A stretch of 47,449 bases of DNA, taken from the IMG/VR virus record IMGVR_UViG_2585427767_000006, one strand, 5' to 3'. Made by a program: the position numbers and the translations under genes. The DNA comes from a virus. Its lineage: Duplodnaviria; Heunggongvirae; Uroviricota; Caudoviricetes. Below are positions 30,219 to 46,028 of this stretch, piece by piece (positions within the stretch are counted from its first letter, which is position 1; every line of letters begins with the position of its first letter). Under the pieces are notes generated by a model. The model ran no database searches. It was not told the DNA's origin and saw only the letters and a list, made by a program, of their open reading frames with translations.

Positions 30219-30609
30219 GAGAGTGGCGCTATGTGCCATTGCATGGTGCCGGGTGCCTCCCGGTGAATTCAGTACCAGCACCTGAATCCGCGATTATCCC
30301 ATATACCTACTCGCTGATTGCCCCTCCGCACAGGGGGATTCACCATGCCAGTTTCTTTTAACAAACTCCCCGCAAACCAGACAACAATCAACCGCCTGAA
30401 TTGTGAAGTATTTAAAAATTTCTCCCGCTAACTGATACCCGGCTAACAGTCTGGCGTTTTCTTTTTCAGCAACGGGAAAGCAACAACCACCACACCCGCC
30501 ACCAGCACACCGTCAGCCAGCACTGACATTATCCGGCTGCTGCAATGCCATTCACAAAAACAGTAAGCAATCACTTTTTACCGTAACCGGTGATAATCCA
30601 GATATGTAT

Positions 30610-40243: not shown

Positions 40244-40663
40244 ATGGTTCATGAAGATAAAGCGCGTAAAGAGTTCGCCAGTAGGCTTGCGCTAGCCTGT
40301 GAAAACGCTGGTTATGAACAACATGGAAGGCAGGCAGAAATTGCCCGTCGAATGAAATTAACACCAAAAGCGGTTAGCAAATGGTTTAATGGCGAAACAA
40401 TTCCTCGCCGGGAGAAATTAAGGGAATTAGCAACACTAATAGGAACAACACCAACCTATCTTTTGGGAGAGGATACAGAAGAAAGTGGACAGGTACGTTT
40501 CTATCAGGAGTTAAATCCAAGACAAAAAATCATCATTGACCTTCTGGACGAGCTCCCTGACAGTGAGACAGATGAACTTTTAAAAACTCTTGAAGAGAAA
40601 AAACAGAAGTACAATGCAATTTACGAAGAGTTAGCACGAAAGAAAAAACAAAAAGCCTCTTAA
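40244..40663 (+). CDS. Prophage repressor, DicA-like (XRE-family HTH, no peptidase domain)
   Basis: 139-aa product from ATG 40244; HTH region RQAEIARRMKLTPKAVSKWFNGE; acidic/helical C-terminus resembling DicA; divergent from cro-like gene. Confidence 0.75.
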   Translation: MVHEDKARKEFASRLALACENAGYEQHGRQAEIARRMKLTPKAVSKWFNGETIPRREKLRELATLIGTTPTYLLGEDTEESGQVRFYQELNPRQKIIIDLLDELPDSETDELLKTLEEKKQKYNAIYEELARKKKQKAS

Positions 40664-40734
40664 ACCAGCATAAATCCGGTAGCGCCTTCCTCCGGGTTTG
40701 TGCTTCACTTTATCCCATCTCATTTTTTTACACA

Positions 40735-40785
40735 CAAAATGTACTAAAAGTACTTTACAACAATGAACGAAAAGTACATTATATA
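40735..40785 (+). promoter_or_regulatory. Left operator / early-left promoter (OL/pL-like)
   Basis: ATGTACTAAAAGTAC (inverted copy of the OR repeat) and GAACGAAAAGTACATT (direct copy) overlap a TTTACA-N17-CATTAT promoter reading toward the ydfA-like/dicB genes. Confidence 0.45.
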
Positions 40786-40959
40786 CCTGCCACCACCCCG
40801 CCCCACAGAATGCAGGGCAATACTTCGAGTTACCAGGCAGTGGTCAGGGGTTAAGTAGCCAGCCCGAGGCGTAAGAACATGACGGCAGGGTTCAACTTTA
40901 ATAACTATGCAGCAGGTTTTTGTTCCGCTACCCCGGCGTTAAGGGGAAATGAGGTCAGC

Positions 40960-41112
40960 ATGGATACTATCGAGCTTGGCAACAACGAATCTCTGGTATG
41001 CGGCGTGTTTCCCAACCAGGACGGCACGTTTACCGCGATGACATATACCAGAAGCAAAACGTTTAAAACTGAAGCTGGCGCGCGTCGCTGGTTAACCAGA
41101 AACACTGACTGA
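40960..41112 (+). CDS. YdfA-like small protein (DUF1391-like)
   Basis: 50-aa product MDTIELGNNESLVCGVFPNQDGTFTAMTYTRSKTFKTEAGARRWL with SD GAGGT, first gene after the repressor as ydfA is after dicA in Qin. Confidence 0.55.
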   Translation: MDTIELGNNESLVCGVFPNQDGTFTAMTYTRSKTFKTEAGARRWLTRNTD

Positions 41113-41123
41113 TGAGGTTGACG

Positions 41124-41462
41124 ATGGAATTTAAAGATTTACCTCCTTCAATCCAGGAGATTGCAGCACACACACTTCGTCATCGTCTGAACGAACTTGA
41201 ATTGAAATCGGTAACAAAAAAAGACACTGATAATATGGCTCGTAATGTGCGCGATGCGTTTACTGGGCTGTTTTCAGATACAGCTTTAAATATCCATGGC
41301 ACAGAGGATACAGCAAAACAATTTGCAGAAAAAGAAGTGGAAGATCCCAGTTCAAAGAGCCAGAAACAGCCAAACAACCATGAAATTAACGAACTGCTTC
41401 TGGCAACAGGCTTCATAAATATTAACGAATATGAACGCCGTAAAAAAATGTTATCTGATTAA
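41124..41462 (+). CDS. Hypothetical protein (112 aa) of the early-left operon
   Basis: ATG 41124 preceded by SD GAGGT; ORF-track start 41112 is also in frame; no recognisable motif. Confidence 0.45.
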   Translation: MEFKDLPPSIQEIAAHTLRHRLNELELKSVTKKDTDNMARNVRDAFTGLFSDTALNIHGTEDTAKQFAEKEVEDPSSKSQKQPNNHEINELLLATGFININEYERRKKMLSD

Positions 41463-41645
41463 TCCATCAAGATATCTTTTTAGCATCAGCGTTTCTACGT
41501 TATTAAAACCATCAGATTTTAACATAGCTTCGATTCGCTGATTTAAATTGCCAACTAACTGTTGATACTGAGTAGATGGAAGCATGTGTACCAGCTCCTT
41601 GAGAACACAATAACATGCACCAAGTTTTAACTCCTGCTCTGACAT
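41451..41645 (-). CDS. Hypothetical small protein (64 aa), antisense to the early-left operon
   Basis: ATG 41645 with strong SD GGAGGA 5 nt upstream; overlaps the 3' end of the convergent plus-strand gene by 12 nt. Confidence 0.35.
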   Translation of the reverse strand: MSEQELKLGACYCVLKELVHMLPSTQYQQLVGNLNQRIEAMLKSDGFNNVETLMLKRYLDGLIR

Positions 41646-41984
41646 TTTATCCTCCATTGAGGTTACTGGTTGAGAATGGAGACCTCTCGTGACAGCGTGT
41701 GGTCGTGCGCCGGACACGGATAAGAATCCGGCACTGACAGTTTACTGAAAGGATATTTCCCTGAAAAGTCAGACCATAACGCGAAAGCGCACGGCGAGGT
41801 AGCTGGTTCATAGATAGCCTGTCGTTAAATTTTCGTCGACCGTGCGCTTCCGGTTGTGGCAATCCGCGAAATGGCGCGGCGGTAAGTATGGCGGGGGTAT
41901 TCCTTCCCCCGTTGAGGACACCGGGTTGTCAGGTTGACCATACGCTTAAGTGACAACCCCGCTGCAACGCCCTCTGTTATCAAT

Positions 41985-42037
41985 TTTCTGGTGACTTTTG
42001 GCGGTATCAGTTTTACTCCGTGACTGCTCTGCCGCCC
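41985..42037 (+). ncRNA. dicF: DicF small RNA homologue (53 nt), with intrinsic terminator U-tract to ~42042
   Basis: Sequence TTTCTGGTGACTTTTGGCGGTATCAGTTTTACTCCGTGACTGCTCTGCCGCCC followed by TTTTT matches the E. coli Qin DicF sRNA as I recall it (one mismatch). Confidence 0.75.
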
Positions 42038-42325
42038 TTTTTAAAGTGAATTTTGTGATGCGGTGAATGCGGCTGAGCGCACGCGGAACAGTTAAAACCA
42101 AAAACAGTGTTATGGGTGGATTCTCTGTATCCGGCGTTAATTGTTAACTGGTTAACGTCACCTGGAGGCACCAGGCACCGCATCAACAAAGTTCACTTCG
42201 GTGATGAAAGGTAAGAGAAAATGTTGAATGTAGCTATTGAAAACCAGAACGGGTGGAATTATAGTGCACCTGCACCTCATAAAACGGGTGCCGGGCGTGG
42301 AAACCCGAAATCATTCACGGCGCAT

Positions 42326-42348
42326 AACCGCGCTCAGGCGGTTTTTTT
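42326..42348 (+). terminator. Intrinsic terminator between DicF and the Rha gene
   Basis: Stem AACCGC/GCGGTT, loop GCTCAG, followed by TTTTTTT. Confidence 0.6.
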
Positions 42349-42517
42349 ATGCGTTAAGCACAGCCACATTCGCATTATGGTGGGGCGTGCAGGGCAGCCG
42401 CAAGGCTGGCCGGGTTCCGTGATGACCGGTATTTCCACCCCTGTACGTCTCACCACCCTTATGGTCGTGGAAAACCTCGGTGGTGAGTTAATCAAATTCA
42501 TCGCGGAGGCTGCCATC

Positions 42518-43075
42518 ATGGCTACTATCCTTACCCTTTCTCACCCTGACGTAACCATCGAAAATGGTCGCGCTGTCACTACGTCTGTTGCGATCGCCGA
42601 GTTCTTTGGCAAACGCCACGAACGAGTGTTGGATAAAATTCGCAATCTGGACTGTTCAGCAAAATTCACTGAGCACAATTTTGTGTCGAGCGAATACACC
42701 GACTCAACCGGGCGCAAACTCCCAATGTACCAAATCACCAAAAACGGCTTCGTTTTCCTGGTGATGGGGTTCACAGGTAAAAAAGCCGCAACTTTCAAAG
42801 AAGCCTACATCGCTGAGTTCGATCGCATGGAGGAAGAACTGCGCCAGAATAACGCCCCGTCTCCCGACAAAATGATTCACGGGGACGGACGCACCCTGGT
42901 TATCCGTCTCGACGAACACGGCAATATCAAATTCACTGAAACCGTTCCTGACGGCGCAATGGTCTGCACCCTGGATACCTTCCGGTTTTATCTGGAGAAA
43001 CAAGGATGGACTCTTGTAAACCGGAGCGCAATTAAAAATATGACTGTGGAGCAATTGCTAAAAATTCATTGTTGA
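42518..43075 (+). CDS. Rha-family phage regulatory protein
   Basis: Rha signatures VAIAEFFGKRHERVLDKIRNL and MYQITKNGFVFLVMGFTGKKAATFKEAYIAEFDRME; start at ATG 42518 with SD GGAGG; the upstream part of ORF-track 42221..43075 contains a terminator. Confidence 0.75.
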   Translation: MATILTLSHPDVTIENGRAVTTSVAIAEFFGKRHERVLDKIRNLDCSAKFTEHNFVSSEYTDSTGRKLPMYQITKNGFVFLVMGFTGKKAATFKEAYIAEFDRMEEELRQNNAPSPDKMIHGDGRTLVIRLDEHGNIKFTETVPDGAMVCTLDTFRFYLEKQGWTLVNRSAIKNMTVEQLLKIHC

Positions 43076-43085
43076 GGACGCGATA

Positions 43086-43274
43086 ATGGAAACGTCACTA
43101 CCAAACGTTAATACGTCTGACGGGTGCTTTAATATTGGTGTTCTGCTCAGTAACAGGGATTTCACCGAGGATGCAATCAATATGAGAAAATATGAACCCT
43201 ACCTGCTGAATGACAATTCCATACTCTCCAGAATTGCCCTTCTTAAACTCGGTATTTTCGGAGAGTGGCGATGA
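43086..43274 (+). CDS. dicB: Cell division inhibitor DicB homologue
   Basis: 62-aa product METSLPNVNTSDGCFNIGVLLSNRDFTEDAINMRK... resembles Qin DicB over the N-terminal 35 aa as I recall it; SD GAGGA upstream. Confidence 0.75.
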   Translation: METSLPNVNTSDGCFNIGVLLSNRDFTEDAINMRKYEPYLLNDNSILSRIALLKLGIFGEWR

Positions 43275-43474
43275 ACACATTATTCGTACTCATTCTGACT
43301 GTACATCTCAATACTGGTGAGTCGCTTGATGCAATCACCGGCATGTACAACTCAATGAAAGAATGCATGGCTGCCGCAGCGGAACAGAAAATTCCCGGCA
43401 ACTGTTATCCGGTCGATAAAGTTATTCACATGGACAATAACGAAATCCCGGCAGGATTAAAAACAGCGCCGTAA
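43271..43474 (+). CDS. YdfD-like small membrane protein
   Basis: 67-aa product from ATG 43271 (SD GGAGAG); EQKIPGNCYPVDKVIH...EIPAGL as recalled for Qin YdfD; overlaps dicB stop by 4 nt. Confidence 0.55.
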   Translation: MNTLFVLILTVHLNTGESLDAITGMYNSMKECMAAAAEQKIPGNCYPVDKVIHMDNNEIPAGLKTAP

Positions 43475-43553: not shown

Positions 43554-46028
43554 ATGAGTAAAGTCTTTATTTGCGCTGCTATTCCTGATGAACAGGCCAT
43601 AAAAGAAGATAGCGCTGTTGCGGTGGCCACTGCCATTGAAGCTGGTGATGAGCGTCGCGCACGCGCAAAATTTCATTGGCAATTTCTGGAGCAATTCCCT
43701 GCAGCTCAGGACTGCGCTTATAAATTTATTGTCTGTGAGGATAAACCCGGCATACCCCGCCCTGCCCTCGATTCCTGGGATGCTGAATATATGCAGGAAA
43801 ACCGCTGGGATGAGGAGTCTGCTTCCTTTGTCCCGGTTGAGACTGAATCAGATCCGATGAACGTCACTTTTGACAAGCTGGTCCCTGAAGTACAGAACGC
43901 TGTCATGGTTAAGTTCGACACATGTGAAAACATCACCGTTGATATGGTTATTAGCGCACAGGAATTGTTGCAGGAAGACATGGCAACATTCGACGGACAT
44001 ATCGTTGAAGCGTTGATGAAAATGCCAGAAGTTAACGCCATGTATCCGGAGCTTAAGCTGCATGCCATCGGGTGGGTTAAGCATAAATGTAAGCCTGGTG
44101 CCAAATGGCCCGAAATTCAGGCAGAGATGCGCATCTGGAAAAAACGTCGCGAAGGTGAACGCAAGGAAACCGGAAAATACACGTCTGTTGTTGATCTCGC
44201 CCGCGCCAGAGTCAATCAACAGAACACTGAAAACTCAGCAGGAAAAATCAACCCAGTCACTGCCGCCATTTGTCGCGAATACAAGCAGACATGGAAAACG
44301 CTGGATGAAGAACTGGCCTACGCTCTCTGGCCTGGCGATATTGATACCGGAAACATTGACGGCAGCATCCATCGCTGGGCAAAAAATGAAGTTATCGACA
44401 AAGATCGCGAAGACTGGAAGCGCATTTCCGCATCAATGCGCAAACAACCCGATGCCGTTCGCTACGACCGTCAGACTATTTTTGGCCTTGTCCGTGAGCG
44501 TCCGATCGACATTCACAAAGATCCCGTAGCACTGAACAAATACATCACTGAATACCTGACTACCAAGGGCGTGTTTGAAGATGACGAAGGAACAAATCAG
44601 GGCACAGCTGGTACTCTCCCGTCACCAGTACCAGAAACTGATGCAGTGGAAACGGCAATGCCGGACAACGAAAAAACCGAATGCGAAGTGGAAGACGAAC
44701 CATCTGTAGAGCGTGAGGGACCGTTCTACTTCCTTTTCACCGATAAGGACGGCGAAAAATACGGTCGCGCAAACAAACTTTCTGGTCTGGAAAAAGCACT
44801 GGCCCTGGGAGCTACGGAAATCACAAAAGAGGAATACTTCGCACGTAAAAACGGTACATACTCAGGTTCACAACAAAATACTGGTGCATCTGACACGACC
44901 GCACAACCAGAGCCAGTAAAAGTTACCGCTGACGAAGTAAACAAAATTATGCAGGCAGCCAATATCAGCCAGCCTGACGCCGATGAACTGCTTGCAGTAT
45001 CACGTGGTGAATTTGTTGAAGGGATTAGCGACCCGAATGATCCGAAATGGGTTAAGGGGAACCAGACCCGCGATTCTGTGAACCAGAACCAGCAAGAAAC
45101 GGAACAGAACGACCAGAAAGCGGAACAAAACAGCCCAAATGCGTTACAAAACGAGCCAGAAACGAAACAGCCTGAATCAGTGGCGCAACAGGAAGTGGAA
45201 AAAGTCTGCACCGCCTGCGGTCAGACCGGCGGCGGCAACTGCCCTGATTGTGGCGCGGTAATGGGCGACGCAACATACCAGGAAACATTCGATGAAGAGT
45301 ATCAGCCTGAAGTTCAGGAAGATGATCCGGAGGAAATGGAAGGCGCTGAACATCCACACAAGGAGAACACTGGCGGCAATCAGCATCACGATAGCGATAA
45401 TGAAACTGGCGAGACGGCAGATCACTCAATTAAGGTGAACGGTCATCAAGAAATCACATCCACCAGCAGAATGTGGCACCACATGATGATCGACCTTGAA
45501 ACCATGGGAAAAAATCCCGATGCCCCGCTTATCTCAATAGGTGCAATATTTTTCGATCCGCAAACCGGAGATATGGGGCCGGAATTTAGTAAGACCATCG
45601 ATATGGATACTGCTGGCGGAGTCATTGATCGTGGCACCATTAAATGGTGGCTTAAGCAATCACGGGAGGCGCAATCTGCCATTCTGACCGATGAAATCCC
45701 GTTAGATGATGCACTGCTGCAATTGCGGGAATTTATCGACGAAAACTCCGGCGAATTTTTTGTTCAGGTCTGGGGAAATGGAGCCAACTTCGACAACACG
45801 ATTTTGCGCCGTTCATACGAACGGCAGGGGATCCCCTGCCCGTGGCGTTACTACAACGATCGCGATGTACGCACAATCGTTGAGCTGGGAAAAGCCATGG
45901 ACTTCGATGCTAGGGCGGCTATTCCATTCGAAGGTGAGCGCCACAATGCGCTGGATGATGCCCGTTACCAGGCAAAATACGTTTCAACTATCTGGCAAAA
46001 ACTGATCCCGAATCAGGCTGATTTTTAA
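43554..46028 (+). CDS. Large exonuclease-like protein with zinc ribbon and C-terminal DEDDh 3'-5' exonuclease domain (annotated in related prophages as exodeoxyribonuclease VIII-like)
   Basis: 824 aa; CTACGQTGGGNCPDCG zinc ribbon; C-terminal MMIDLETMG (Exo I), WGNGANFD (Exo II), HNALDDARYQ (Exo III) motifs; SD GAGGT. Confidence 0.7.
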   Translation: MSKVFICAAIPDEQAIKEDSAVAVATAIEAGDERRARAKFHWQFLEQFPAAQDCAYKFIVCEDKPGIPRPALDSWDAEYMQENRWDEESASFVPVETESDPMNVTFDKLVPEVQNAVMVKFDTCENITVDMVISAQELLQEDMATFDGHIVEALMKMPEVNAMYPELKLHAIGWVKHKCKPGAKWPEIQAEMRIWKKRREGERKETGKYTSVVDLARARVNQQNTENSAGKINPVTAAICREYKQTWKTLDEELAYALWPGDIDTGNIDGSIHRWAKNEVIDKDREDWKRISASMRKQPDAVRYDRQTIFGLVRERPIDIHKDPVALNKYITEYLTTKGVFEDDEGTNQGTAGTLPSPVPETDAVETAMPDNEKTECEVEDEPSVEREGPFYFLFTDKDGEKYGRANKLSGLEKALALGATEITKEEYFARKNGTYSGSQQNTGASDTTAQPEPVKVTADEVNKIMQAANISQPDADELLAVSRGEFVEGISDPNDPKWVKGNQTRDSVNQNQQETEQNDQKAEQNSPNALQNEPETKQPESVAQQEVEKVCTACGQTGGGNCPDCGAVMGDATYQETFDEEYQPEVQEDDPEEMEGAEHPHKENTGGNQHHDSDNETGETADHSIKVNGHQEITSTSRMWHHMMIDLETMGKNPDAPLISIGAIFFDPQTGDMGPEFSKTIDMDTAGGVIDRGTIKWWLKQSREAQSAILTDEIPLDDALLQLREFIDENSGEFFVQVWGNGANFDNTILRRSYERQGIPCPWRYYNDRDVRTIVELGKAMDFDARAAIPFEGERHNALDDARYQAKYVSTIWQKLIPNQADF

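What the first reader, a model, noticed from the sequence alone, without database searches (positions are those of the whole stretch)
42518..43274. Rha-family regulator inserted between DicF and a DicB homologue
In Qin, dicF lies immediately upstream of dicB. Here a Rha-domain gene with its own SD sits between the DicF terminators and a 62-aa DicB-like ORF. The dicB operon therefore appears rearranged, and DicB expression may depend on read-through or on a promoter upstream of rha.
Basis: partly seen in the sequence, partly recalled or inferred. Interest (0 to 1): 0.45.

Follow-up and report, generated by a model that had tools for sequence, protein, structure and literature searches.

The report
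Riboregulated Rha cassette upstream of dicB
A known type of small-RNA-controlled phage regulator cassette (IsrK and C4 RNAs plus a Rha-family gene) sits between the DicF RNA and the cell-division inhibitor gene dicB in this prophage, a minority gene order found in about 5% of complete E. coli genomes that probably gives dicB a second, RNA-gated route of expression.

Summary
A Rha-domain gene (42518-43075) lies between DicF (41986-42037) and a true DicB homologue (43086-43274).

It has a sigma-70-like promoter, an IsrK/c4-a1b1 leader RNA with its own terminator, a C4-type antisense RNA, and then rha. Its Shine-Dalgarno sequence abuts a C4 target site.

Across 12 copies from different prophages, the C4 loops co-vary with sites in IsrK and with the site at the rha SD. 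This is the P1 immI / P4 / Gifsy-1 isrK logic.

dicB starts 10 nt after the rha stop and no terminator was predicted between them, so it should be co-transcribed with rha.

The order is not the norm. 259 of 5426 complete E. coli genomes have the rha-dicB junction and 4204 have the Qin-type direct junction. It is also not unique, and PGAP already annotates it. The same cassette precedes kilR in Rac-like prophages.

Whether the cassette was inserted here or deleted in Qin is unresolved. What the Rha protein does is inferred, not shown. An antirepressor role is suggested because its C-terminal domain matches the family of AnrP, the antirepressor-like protein of Salmonella prophage Gifsy-1.

Verdict: a new member of a known kind, of modest interest.

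The parts
41986..42037 (+). DicF sRNA with its 3' stem-loop and T-run
   Evidence: Rfam RF00039, 75.8 bits, full length. It differs from K-12 DicF by 1 nt.
42038..42186 (+). DicF-dicB leader shared with Qin/PPompW. It contains the hairpin TCACCTGGAGGCACCAGGCACC at 42158-42179.
   Evidence: About 98% identical to K-12 Qin and PPompW up to ...GCATCA at 42185. In an identical genome PGAP labels 42107-42190 as 'partial DicB'. Hairpin motif.
42187..42197 (+). Left copy of the imperfect direct repeat (CAAAGTTCACT) at the left edge of the segment that Qin lacks
   Evidence: Junction comparison with the empty sites L011 and L002.
42237..42265 (+). Candidate isrK promoter, TTGAAA-17-TATAGT
   Evidence: Consensus scan, 10 of 12 matches. 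It ends 7 nt before the IsrK 5' end. The hexamers are conserved in Rac-like copies. TTGATT-17-TACACT sits at the same place in e14-like copies. In Gifsy-1 the isrK promoter drives the downstream gene (PMC4825925).
42272..42348 (+). IsrK / c4-a1b1 leader RNA. a1 site GTGGAAA at 42297-42303, b1 site at 42311-42320, intrinsic terminator stem at 42326-42343 followed by a T-run.
   Evidence: Rfam RF01394, 67.7 bits. Terminator. a1-a' helix has 6 of 7 pairs with changes on both sides and 100% of cells paired. b1-b' helix has 5 of 9 and 94%.
42373..42460 (+). C4-type antisense RNA (equivalent to STnc1160 in Gifsy-1). b' loop at 42415-42425, a' bulge at 42432-42438.
   Evidence: Rfam RF01695, 81.9 bits, full length. 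Internal stems are 100% paired, with 4 covarying pairs in hairpin 1.
42467..42509 (+). Downstream C4 target region. a2 GTGGAAA at 42467-42473, b2 TCATCGCGGAG at 42498-42508, overlapping the rha SD GGAGG at 42505-42509.
   Evidence: b'-b2 helix has 11 pairs, 5 with changes on both sides, and 92% of cells paired. Controls with slid partners give 39-47%. Cognate duplex energy is -19.3 kcal/mol in the window. The mean is -17.0 for cognate and -10.0 for non-cognate pairs.
42518..43075 (+). rha, 185 aa: an N-terminal pRha domain (aa ~10-110) plus a C-terminal AnrP-type domain (aa ~100-172)
   Evidence: Pfam and TIGRFAM. phrog_995 over the full length. C-domain matches phrog_2379, the AnrP family, at E 1.3e-8. 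SD plus ATG context GAGGCTGCCATCATG is conserved in copies.
42221..42517 (+). In-frame upstream extension that PGAP adds to rha (284-aa model). It overlaps the promoter, IsrK and C4, and matches Pfam Phage_ASH.
   Evidence: ORF list. Pfam Ash 60.7 bits. PGAP annotation. The frame is open in all 6 E. coli copies tested but not in Gifsy-1. It is probably an over-extended gene model. Use of the internal AUGs at 42377 and 42461 remains open.
43061..43075 (+). Right junction. AAAATTCATTGTTGA is the last Rha codons (KIHC plus stop) and is also present in the empty Qin/PPompW sites. It contains the right copy of the imperfect repeat.
   Evidence: The Rac-like Rha ends differently, in SIK plus stop.
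43086..43274 (+). dicB homologue, 62 aa. Its SD GAGGA overlaps the rha stop, and its ATG is 10 nt after the rha stop.
   Evidence: Pfam DicB 111.7 bits, NCBIfam 103.4 against 100. 64% identity to K-12 DicB. It is closer to PPompW DicB. No terminator is predicted between rha and dicB.
43271..43474 (+). ydfD-like DUF1482 gene that overlaps the dicB stop, as in Qin
   Evidence: Pfam DUF1482 69.8 bits. Same order as K-12 dicB-ydfD.
40244..40663 (+). Context: short DicA/GfoR-family repressor of this prophage, with no peptidase domain and a C-terminal LLxLFxxLPxSE-type motif
   Evidence: Pfam HTH_3. 29% identity to K-12 DicA, E 3e-11. Alignment with 7 relatives including the Gifsy-1 repressor.

Best explanation
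The ~875 bp between the DicF-side leader and dicB are a self-contained, RNA-gated regulator cassette. It is of the P1 immI / P4 CI / Gifsy-1 isrK type and sits within a Qin/PPompW-like dicBF (early-left) operon.

A promoter at 42237-42265 starts IsrK. IsrK carries the a1 and b1 sites, and most transcripts stop at its intrinsic terminator. Read-through RNA contains the C4-type RNA. The a' and b' single-stranded segments of C4 pair with a2 and b2, and b2 overlaps the rha Shine-Dalgarno sequence, so rha translation is held off. IsrK or the leader carries decoy copies (a1, b1) of the same sites. The balance of short IsrK against C4 therefore sets whether Rha is made, as was shown experimentally for the Gifsy-1 locus.

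Rha has a pRha N-domain and an AnrP-type C-domain and most likely acts as an antirepressor-type regulator.

dicB starts 10 nt after the rha stop and no terminator is predicted between them. It therefore lies on the same read-through transcript. Compared with Qin it gains one extra terminator against dicBp-driven transcription and one internal promoter that does not depend on the DicA-type repressor.

Shown here: the anatomy, the homologies, covariation of the RNA pairings, the distribution and the junctions. Inferred: promoter activity, C4 processing, the Rha function, and any effect on DicB levels.
For: - Rfam finds DicF, IsrK and C4 in order on the + strand.
- The promoter match ends 7 nt before the IsrK 5' end, and the IsrK terminator is predicted.
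- 12 copies show six b-type and four a-type specificities that reassort.
- Formal counts: a1-a' 6 of 7 pairs changed on both sides, b1-b' 5 of 9, b'-b2 5 of 11. 92-100% of cells are paired, against 39-47% when partners are slid. 0 of 500 shuffles reach the covariation score.
- Cognate b'-b2 duplexes average -17.0 kcal/mol against -10.0 for non-cognate.
- Alignment pairs 28-166 and 31-163 correspond to the Gifsy-1 positions G28/C162 and G31/C159. Mutating those positions raised basal anrP translation (PMC4825925 Table 1D).
- Rfam curates c4-a1b1 over IsrK in Gifsy-1.
- The P1 immI scheme, in which C4 blocks the RBS and the operon carries icd and ant, is described in the literature.
- The Rha C-domain matches the AnrP family.
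- All 8 repressors linked to this C-domain type are short DicA/GfoR-family proteins. The e14-like copies with S24-type repressors carry another C-domain.
- DicA-type repressors are known to be relieved by antirepressors (PMC10448788).
- The rha stop and the dicB ATG are 10 nt apart, and no terminator or promoter is predicted between them.
Against: - There are no expression data.
- The promoter is only a consensus match, and promoter-like sites in the region are not more frequent than in shuffles (6 found against 5.4 expected).
- Rha is not an AnrP orthologue. The N-domains differ (pRha against ORF6N) and the pairwise similarity is weak.
- The Rha C-domain stays 77-100% identical beside repressors that are 30% identical or less.
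- One prophage carries both intact rem and rha-dicB, so a role as the resident antirepressor is not demonstrated.
- The gene frame stays open through IsrK and C4 in all E. coli copies tested, so translation of this region cannot be excluded.
- The a'-a2 count is only 81% because four rows are misaligned by a 3-nt gap.
Confidence: 0.7

Rival explanations
1. The cassette is a regulatory passenger with respect to dicB. Transcripts from the internal promoter essentially all stop at the IsrK terminator or are degraded. DicB is still made only from the DicA-family-repressed early promoter, and the only effect of the cassette is an extra terminator that lowers read-through.
For: A strong intrinsic terminator follows IsrK. 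In Gifsy-1 only a subset of transcripts read through, and basal translation of the downstream gene is nil. dicB keeps exactly the same SD and start context as in Qin/PPompW.
Against: In Gifsy-1 the isrK promoter gave measurable transcription of the downstream gene (280 against 3 Miller units). No terminator is predicted between rha and dicB. The same cassette sits directly upstream of a second division inhibitor, kilR, in Rac-like prophages.
Confidence: 0.3
2. The cassette was not inserted. The Qin/PPompW direct DicF-dicB order is a deletion derivative of an ancestor that carried the cassette. The deletion arose by recombination between the short imperfect repeats CAAAGTTCACT and AAAATTCATTG.
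For: The empty sites keep one repeat copy plus the 15 nt that in the filled form encode the last four Rha residues and the stop. The DicF leader is contiguous with the cassette in Rac-like prophages that have a different right flank. The cassette-bearing order occurs at two or more integration sites, ompW and potB/potC.
Against: The direct order is far more common (4204 against 259 genomes). The repeats match at only about 8 of 10 positions. The core of the cassette starts at the IsrK promoter in other contexts, so a mosaic exchange in either direction fits.
Confidence: 0.5
3. The real product is the 284-aa Ash-Rha fusion protein that PGAP annotates, and the IsrK and C4 matches are merely conserved coding sequence.
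For: The frame is open from 42221 in the window and through IsrK and C4 in all 6 E. coli copies, including across a 3-nt indel. Pfam Phage_ASH matches at 60.7 bits. phrog_995 members are about 307 aa.
Against: There is three-way compensatory covariation of RNA pairings. Full-length Rfam hits lie well above their thresholds. A promoter and an intrinsic terminator lie inside the supposed ORF. The SD plus ATG at 42518 is conserved, and distant Rha homologues align from residue ~12 of the 185-aa form. In Gifsy-1 the frame is closed and the RNAs were detected experimentally. According to a review, the orf45 nucleotide sequence is conserved but its amino acid sequence is not.
Confidence: 0.07
4. Rha is a DNA-binding transcription factor or host-directed effector, not an antirepressor of the prophage repressor.
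For: PHROG labels for the best families are 'transcriptional regulator'. The C-domain does not co-vary with repressor sequence, and it coexists with the proven DicA antirepressor Rem in one prophage. No solved structure or tested close homologue was found.
Against: The C-domain is homologous to the AnrP family, and AnrP induces Gifsy-1. There is class-level co-occurrence with DicA/GfoR-type repressors. The window lacks rem, and no other antirepressor-like gene was found among the ORFs checked.
Confidence: 0.35

Closest known systems
Gifsy-1 isrK-orf45-anrP-isrJ locus (Salmonella; Hershko-Shalev et al. 2016, PMC4825925)
   Same: The layout is the same: promoter, IsrK with its terminator, C4-type RNA (STnc1160), then a regulator gene whose SD abuts the b2 site. 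The a1-a' pairs are the same ones that were mutated experimentally. The regulator's C-terminal domain belongs to the same family.
   Different: The N-domain is pRha here and ORF6N in AnrP. orf45 is a separate 45-codon frame in Gifsy-1 but is fused in frame to rha here. There is no isrJ and no adjacent antQ. The location is the early-left operon after DicF, followed by dicB, rather than next to the late antiterminator gene.
Phage P1/P7 immI operon (c4 antisense RNA - icd - ant)
   Same: A C4 RNA is made from the same transcript as its targets. There are a1/b1 sites upstream and a2/b2 sites downstream, with b2 over the RBS. Specificity variants exist, analogous to P1/P7 heteroimmunity. The operon combines an antirepressor-type gene with a cell-division inhibitor.
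   Different: The division inhibitor here is DicB, which is unrelated to Icd, and it lies downstream of the regulator instead of upstream and overlapping it. The regulator is a Rha-family protein, not P1 Ant. The context is a lambdoid chromosomal prophage.
Satellite phage P4 immunity (CI RNA with seqA and seqC)
   Same: A processed antisense RNA is flanked by complementary upstream and downstream sites. The Gifsy-1 authors describe IsrK as a structural homologue of SeqA. Rfam places these families in one clan, CL00128.
   Different: P4 CI acts mainly by causing premature transcription termination of replication genes. Here the downstream site overlaps an SD, which suggests translational control.
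K-12 Qin dicBF operon (ydfABC-dicF-dicB-ydfD) with DicA, DicC and Rem
   Same: There is a DicA-family repressor with a divergent Cro-like gene, a DUF1391 gene, DicF, the same 150-nt leader, the same dicB SD and start, ydfD and an exonuclease.
   Different: Qin has no cassette between the leader and dicB. Its antirepressor Rem is encoded 3.6 kb away (PMC10448788). The window lacks rem, and its repressor is only 29% identical to DicA.
Rac-like prophages with DicF-leader-IsrK-C4-rha-kilR
   Same: The DicF leader and the cassette are contiguous and about 86% identical at the DNA level. The Rha proteins are 81-89% identical. A division inhibitor lies immediately downstream.
   Different: The downstream gene is kilR, followed by ydaE-recE, not dicB. 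The C4 specificity (b type) differs. Rha ends in SIK rather than KIHC.

Membership tests
DicB (PF05358 / NF049927) | Sequence passes the curated family thresholds over the full 62-aa length | tested here: met
   Pfam 111.7 bits against 27. NCBIfam 103.4 bits against 100, which is only just above the cutoff. 64% identity to K-12 DicB.
DicB (PF05358 / NF049927) | Operon position: downstream of DicF, with the start context shared with Qin, followed by an overlapping ydfD-like gene | tested here: met
   The cassette is interposed, but the SD and ATG context is identical to that of the empty sites.
DicB (PF05358 / NF049927) | MinC-dependent inhibition of cell division | not testable with these tools
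   This needs a filamentation assay in minC+ and minC- hosts.
Phage_pRha (PF09669 / TIGR02681) | Domain passes the curated thresholds | tested here: met
   107.7 bits against 29.9, and 110 bits against 45.95.
C4 antisense RNA (RF01695; P1/P7 c4 type) | Covariance-model score above the gathering score, over the full length | tested here: met
   81.9 bits against 45, model positions 1-87 of 87.
C4 antisense RNA (RF01695; P1/P7 c4 type) | Single-stranded a' and b' segments complementary to sites downstream on the same transcript, with b2 at the RBS of the first gene | tested here: met
   b' at 42415-42425 pairs with b2 at 42498-42508, which overlaps the SD at 42505-42509, at -19.3 kcal/mol. 5 pairs covary. 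a'-a2 is complementary, but the column count is degraded by an alignment gap.
C4 antisense RNA (RF01695; P1/P7 c4 type) | Upstream a1/b1 copies of the targets | tested here: met
   a1-a' has 6 of 7 pairs covarying and b1-b' has 5 of 9. The Rfam c4-a1b1 family hits the homologous Gifsy-1 segment. It did not appear for the window at the gathering threshold, where IsrK was reported instead.
C4 antisense RNA (RF01695; P1/P7 c4 type) | Processing of the RNA out of a longer transcript, and repression of the downstream gene in vivo | not testable with these tools
   This needs Northern blots and reporter fusions.
IsrK (RF01394) | Covariance-model score above the gathering score, with its own promoter and a Rho-independent terminator | tested here: met
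   67.7 bits against 50. Promoter-like site at 42237-42265 and terminator at 42326-42343 plus T-run. These are sequence-level findings only.
Gifsy-1 isrK-orf45-anrP-isrJ locus | A separate short upstream ORF (orf45) translationally coupled to the regulator gene | tested here: not met
   The AUG at 42377, equivalent to the orf45 start, is in frame with rha and has no stop. The same holds in all 6 E. coli copies. In Gifsy-1 it is a separate 45-codon frame.
Gifsy-1 isrK-orf45-anrP-isrJ locus | The regulator is an AnrP orthologue | tested here: inconclusive
   The C-domain matches the AnrP family (phrog_2379, E 1.3e-8). The N-domains differ, pRha against ORF6N. BLASTP gives 23% identity with E 0.003.
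Gifsy-1 isrK-orf45-anrP-isrJ locus | isrJ sRNA and terminator downstream, and antQ upstream | tested here: not met
   There is no isrJ hit in the window. dicB follows after 10 nt, and DicF plus the leader lie upstream.
P1 immI operon | An icd-type ORF between c4 and ant that is required for ant expression | tested here: inconclusive
   No separate ORF is present. There are only in-frame upstream AUGs at 42377 and 42461. A different division inhibitor, DicB, lies downstream instead.
Antirepressor (functional class) | Binds and inactivates the prophage repressor | not testable with these tools
   The evidence is indirect: AnrP-type C-domain, co-occurrence with DicA/GfoR-class repressors, and absence of rem in the window. 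Against: no co-variation with repressor sequence, and coexistence with rem in strain 19KM1803.
DicF (RF00039) | Covariance-model score above the gathering score, over the full length | tested here: met
   75.8 bits against 48.

The most novel reading that the evidence does not exclude
In a subset of lambdoid prophages the cell-division inhibitors DicB (Qin/PPompW-like) and KilR (Rac-like) have been placed directly behind an IsrK/C4-gated antirepressor gene. Division arrest and prophage derepression would then be switched on together by a small-RNA balance that does not depend on the DicA-type repressor. This would be a lambdoid counterpart, assembled from unrelated proteins, of the P1 immI c4-icd-ant operon, with short IsrK acting as a decoy for C4.
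Probability: 0.3. Interest if true: 0.5.

Novelty: new member of a known kind. Interest (0 to 1): 0.3.

Why it matters
DicB and DicF are toxic, division-blocking products, and how they are controlled in natural isolates is only partly understood (DicA, DicC, Rem; PMC10448788). About 5% of complete E. coli genomes carry a dicB that sits behind a small-RNA-gated cassette instead of directly behind DicF. Results from K-12 on dicBF regulation may therefore not transfer to those strains.

The comparative data also link three separately described items into one scheme with exchangeable specificities: IsrK, C4/STnc1160, and the a1b1 and a2b2 targets. The data show the cassette is a mobile module used in several operon contexts of Stx, Rac-like, e14-like and Qin-like prophages.

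A practical point follows. The PGAP 284-aa 'Rha' model and the Pfam 'Ash' family run across RNA genes and should be treated with caution.

Tried and rejected
1. 'Rha replaces Rem as the antirepressor.' The window lacks rem and every cassette-less DicF-dicB phage has it. However, strain 19KM1803 has intact rem together with rha-dicB, so I rejected this as a rule.
2. Co-variation of the Rha C-domain with repressor sequence. None was found. The C-domain stays 77-100% identical beside repressors that are 30% identical or less. Only a class-level association holds.
3. Rha as an AnrP orthologue. The N-domains differ.
4. A real dicB duplication upstream of the cassette, suggested by PGAP's 'partial DicB'. 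It is only the shared leader, matched by N-terminally extended DicB models.
5. PDB sequence search for Rha. Nothing useful came up.
6. IsrK or C4 in K-12 e14. Absent.
7. A significant local structure that occludes the dicB start. The small hairpin is not distinguishable from shuffles, z -0.5.
8. My first coordinates for rha were off by one and gave stop codons. I corrected the start to 42518.
9. I did not run structure prediction or the large protein database searches. They would not decide the regulatory question.
Full report

- Rfam places DicF at 41986-42037 on the + strand (75.8 bits).
- An ORF from the ATG at 42518 to 43075 (185 aa) carries a Phage_pRha domain (Pfam 107.7 bits, TIGR02681 110 bits). 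It is preceded by GGAGG at 42505-42509.
- Ten nucleotides after its stop, a 62-codon ORF (43086-43274) passes the Pfam and NCBIfam DicB thresholds (111.7 against 27, and 103.4 against 100). It is 64% identical to K-12 DicB.
- It is followed by an overlapping ydfD-like DUF1482 gene, an 824-aa exonuclease and an integrase, as in Qin.
- In K-12 Qin there is no gene between DicF and dicB.

The same Rfam scan reports IsrK (42272-42348) and a C4 antisense RNA (42373-42460) between DicF and rha.

- A sigma-70-like site, TTGAAA-17-TATAGT (42237-42265), ends 7 nt before the IsrK 5' end.
- An intrinsic terminator (42326-42343 plus a T-run) closes IsrK.
- The extra DNA is therefore a unit: promoter, IsrK, C4, rha.

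**Boundaries.** Alignment with K-12 Qin and with a closer PPompW phage lacking the unit gives the following.

- The flanks are conserved up to ...GCATCA (42185), with about 98% identity over the 250 nt to the left.
- Homology resumes at AAAATTCATTGTTGAGGACGCGATAATG (43061 onward).
- About 875 bp are extra.
- The segment is bracketed by imperfect repeats, CAAAGTTCACT and AAAATTCATTG.
- The empty sites retain the 15 nt that in the window encode the last four Rha residues and the stop.
- PGAP's 'partial DicB' pseudogene at about 42107-42190 in an identical genome is only the shared leader.

**Distribution among 5426 complete E. coli genomes.**

| Feature | Genomes |
|---|---|
| rha-dicB junction | 259 |
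| Qin-type direct junction | 4204 |
| IsrK-C4-rha 5' part, any match | 1075 |
| IsrK-C4-rha 5' part, at least 80% covered | 464 |

The arrangement is a minority form, not the norm and not unique. It occurs at two or more integration sites, ompW and potB/potC. PGAP annotates it routinely.

The same DicF-leader-cassette block precedes kilR-ydaE-recE in Rac-like prophages. The cassette core also sits in early-right operons of e14-like prophages, Stx phages and ST64B, where it is often labelled 'antirepressor'.

**Mechanism at the RNA level.** I compared 12 copies from IsrK +1 to the gene's ATG (alignment A4).

- They fall into six b-type and four a-type specificities, and these reassort.
- In each copy the 12-nt C4 loop (b') is complementary both to a site in the 3' half of IsrK (b1) and to a site abutting the SD of the downstream gene (b2).
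- The C4 bulge (a') is complementary to the IsrK hairpin loop (a1) and to a site just 3' of C4 (a2).

| Helix | Pairs | Changed on both sides | Cells paired |
|---|---|---|---|
| a1-a' | 7 | 6 | 100% |
| b1-b' | 9 | 5 | 94% |
| b'-b2 | 11 | 5 | 92% |

Slid controls drop to 39-47% paired, and no shuffle reaches the covariation score. Cognate b'-b2 duplexes average -17.0 kcal/mol against -10.0 for non-cognate pairs, and the window's is -19.3. The a'-a2 count is degraded (81%) because four rows carry a 3-nt gap. By eye they are complementary.

This is the a1b1 / a'b' / a2b2 scheme of P1/P7 c4, in which the RNA binds around the RBS of the immI operon, and of P4 CI with seqA and seqC. Rfam already curates a c4-a1b1 family that overlaps IsrK in Gifsy-1. 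Alignment pairs 28-166 and 31-163 correspond to Gifsy-1 G28/C162 and G31/C159, and mutating those positions raised basal anrP translation 23- to 230-fold (PMC4825925 Table 1D). The leader as a whole folds much better than shuffles (z -4.75), with the SD and b2 in a local hairpin.

I infer that C4 holds rha translation off and that short IsrK counteracts it by offering decoy sites. That would agree with the experimentally observed activation by IsrK in trans in Gifsy-1. This step is an inference for the window.

**Which start codon.** PGAP annotates a 284-aa ORF from 42221, and its N-terminal part hits Pfam Phage_ASH.

- That extension spans the promoter, IsrK and C4.
- The SD plus ATG at 42518 is conserved across copies.
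- Distant Rha proteins align from residue ~12 of the 185-aa form.
- I therefore take 42518 as the main start.
- However, the gene frame is open through IsrK and C4 in all six E. coli copies tested, even across a 3-nt indel, whereas in Gifsy-1 the equivalent orf45 is a separate 45-codon frame.
- N-terminally extended isoforms from the AUGs at 42377 or 42461 cannot be excluded.

**The Rha protein.** Its N-domain is pRha. Its C-domain (aa ~100-172) matches the AnrP family at profile level (phrog_2379, E 1.3e-8), while AnrP itself has an ORF6N N-domain.

DicA-type repressors are short, non-cleavable and relieved by antirepressors. In K-12 that antirepressor is Rem (PMC10448788). The window's repressor (40244-40663) is a DicA relative, 29% identical.

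I tested the idea that Rha replaces Rem.

- The window has no rem.
- All cassette-less DicF-dicB phages carry rem.
- Two other cassette-bearing prophages keep only a 25-27-aa rem remnant.
- Strain 19KM1803 has intact rem, a DicA-type repressor and rha-dicB together.
- The idea fails as a rule.

The Rha C-domain also does not co-vary with repressor sequence. What does hold is a class-level association. All eight repressors found with an AnrP-type C-domain, including that of Gifsy-1, belong to one family with a C-terminal LLxLFxxLPxSE motif. The e14-like copies beside S24/LexA-type repressors have another C-domain. An antirepressor role is therefore plausible but unproven.

**Consequence for dicB.**

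- The rha stop (43073-43075) overlaps the dicB SD region, and the dicB ATG follows at 43086.
- No terminator or + strand promoter is predicted between them.
- The small hairpin around the dicB start is not significant.
- dicB should therefore be on any transcript that reads through rha.
- Relative to Qin, transcription from the early promoter must pass one more terminator, while a repressor-independent internal promoter is added.
- In Qin, read-through of DicF into dicB is already the normal route.

Whether this changes DicB levels is untested.

**Direction of the event.** A deletion in the Qin/PPompW lineage would explain three things: the retained rha 3' end, the flanking repeats, and the contiguity of leader and cassette in Rac-like prophages. 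The abundance of the empty form and the weak repeats allow the opposite direction as well. I leave this at about even odds.

**Literature.** Searches found no paper that describes a Rha or IsrK/C4 cassette next to DicF or dicB. A 2025 review lists IsrK, c4 and DicF as separate items.

**Verdict.** The feature is a new member of a known kind of RNA-gated antirepressor cassette, in a known operon. The one point of wider interest is the recurrent pairing of such cassettes with division inhibitors: P1 icd, dicB here, and kilR in Rac-like prophages. Interest 0.3.

Noticed in passing
window 42158-42179 (+) and 30245-30266 (-): The hairpin motif TCACC-NGG-AGGCA-CCN-GGCACC occurs twice, against 0 expected. 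One copy is in the DicF-dicB leader and the other is inside the STnc100 sRNA match downstream of the Q-like gene. The two copies differ by a compensatory change in the stem (CCTGG/CCAGG against CCGGG/CCCGG). Its function is unknown. It could be a shared processing or antitermination-related element.
   Followed up: partly
window 42221-42517; also L007 2141-2746 and L009 2294-2749: The Pfam family Phage_ASH ('Ash protein') matches the translation of the IsrK and C4 RNA genes. PGAP extends 'Rha' or 'ash family' gene models across them. The frame is nevertheless open in all E. coli copies tested. The family is therefore either built on RNA genes or the region is dual-use.
   Followed up: partly
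L007 2141-2500 (e14-like prophage of E. coli JJ1886); K-12 e14 L018 4823-5161: In e14-like prophages the long ORF that runs into IsrK-C4-rha starts at the ymfL stop. Its first ~90 aa are 32% identical (E 1e-7) to K-12 YmfM, a reported SOS-inducible filamentation gene (bioRxiv 10.1101/2020.11.19.390815). K-12 e14 itself has no IsrK or C4. This is another division inhibitor next to this cassette.
   Followed up: partly
window 40244-40663 and repressors in L002, L003, L005, L006, L010, L011, L022: Short DicA/GfoR-type repressors that are otherwise 30% identical or less all share a C-terminal LLxLFxxLPxSE motif. It is a candidate dimerisation or antirepressor-docking element.
   Followed up: no
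window ~40700-41900 compared with L001 2300-4000: The 1.6-kb query region is 100% identical to E. coli S1-ZIM-01-A. The window differs upstream, however. It has a different repressor type, and the interval between ydaT and the query region is 541 bp shorter in the window. In place of that strain's ydfB and ydfC annotations it has a 77-aa DUF1391 ORF and a 116-aa ORF. The cassette-dicB block is therefore shared between prophages with different immunity regions.
   Followed up: partly
L020 32220-32297 and L023 30281-30361: Cassette-bearing prophages with non-DicA-type repressors keep only the first 25-27 codons of rem, the DicA antirepressor gene. The remnants are annotated as truncated hypothetical pseudogenes.
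   Followed up: partly
L020 23700-26600 (E. coli S1-ZIM-01-A prophage at ompW): An ISEcp1-blaCTX-M-15 unit is inserted in the iraM region of the related cassette-bearing prophage, so an ESBL gene sits inside a lambdoid prophage.
   Followed up: no
window 43554-46028: The 824-aa 'exonuclease' downstream of ydfD has a C-terminal Rv2179c-like 3'-5' exoribonuclease domain. It shows only partial similarity to RecE (exodeoxyribonuclease VIII), 278.7 bits against the equivalog cutoff of 1269.
   Followed up: no
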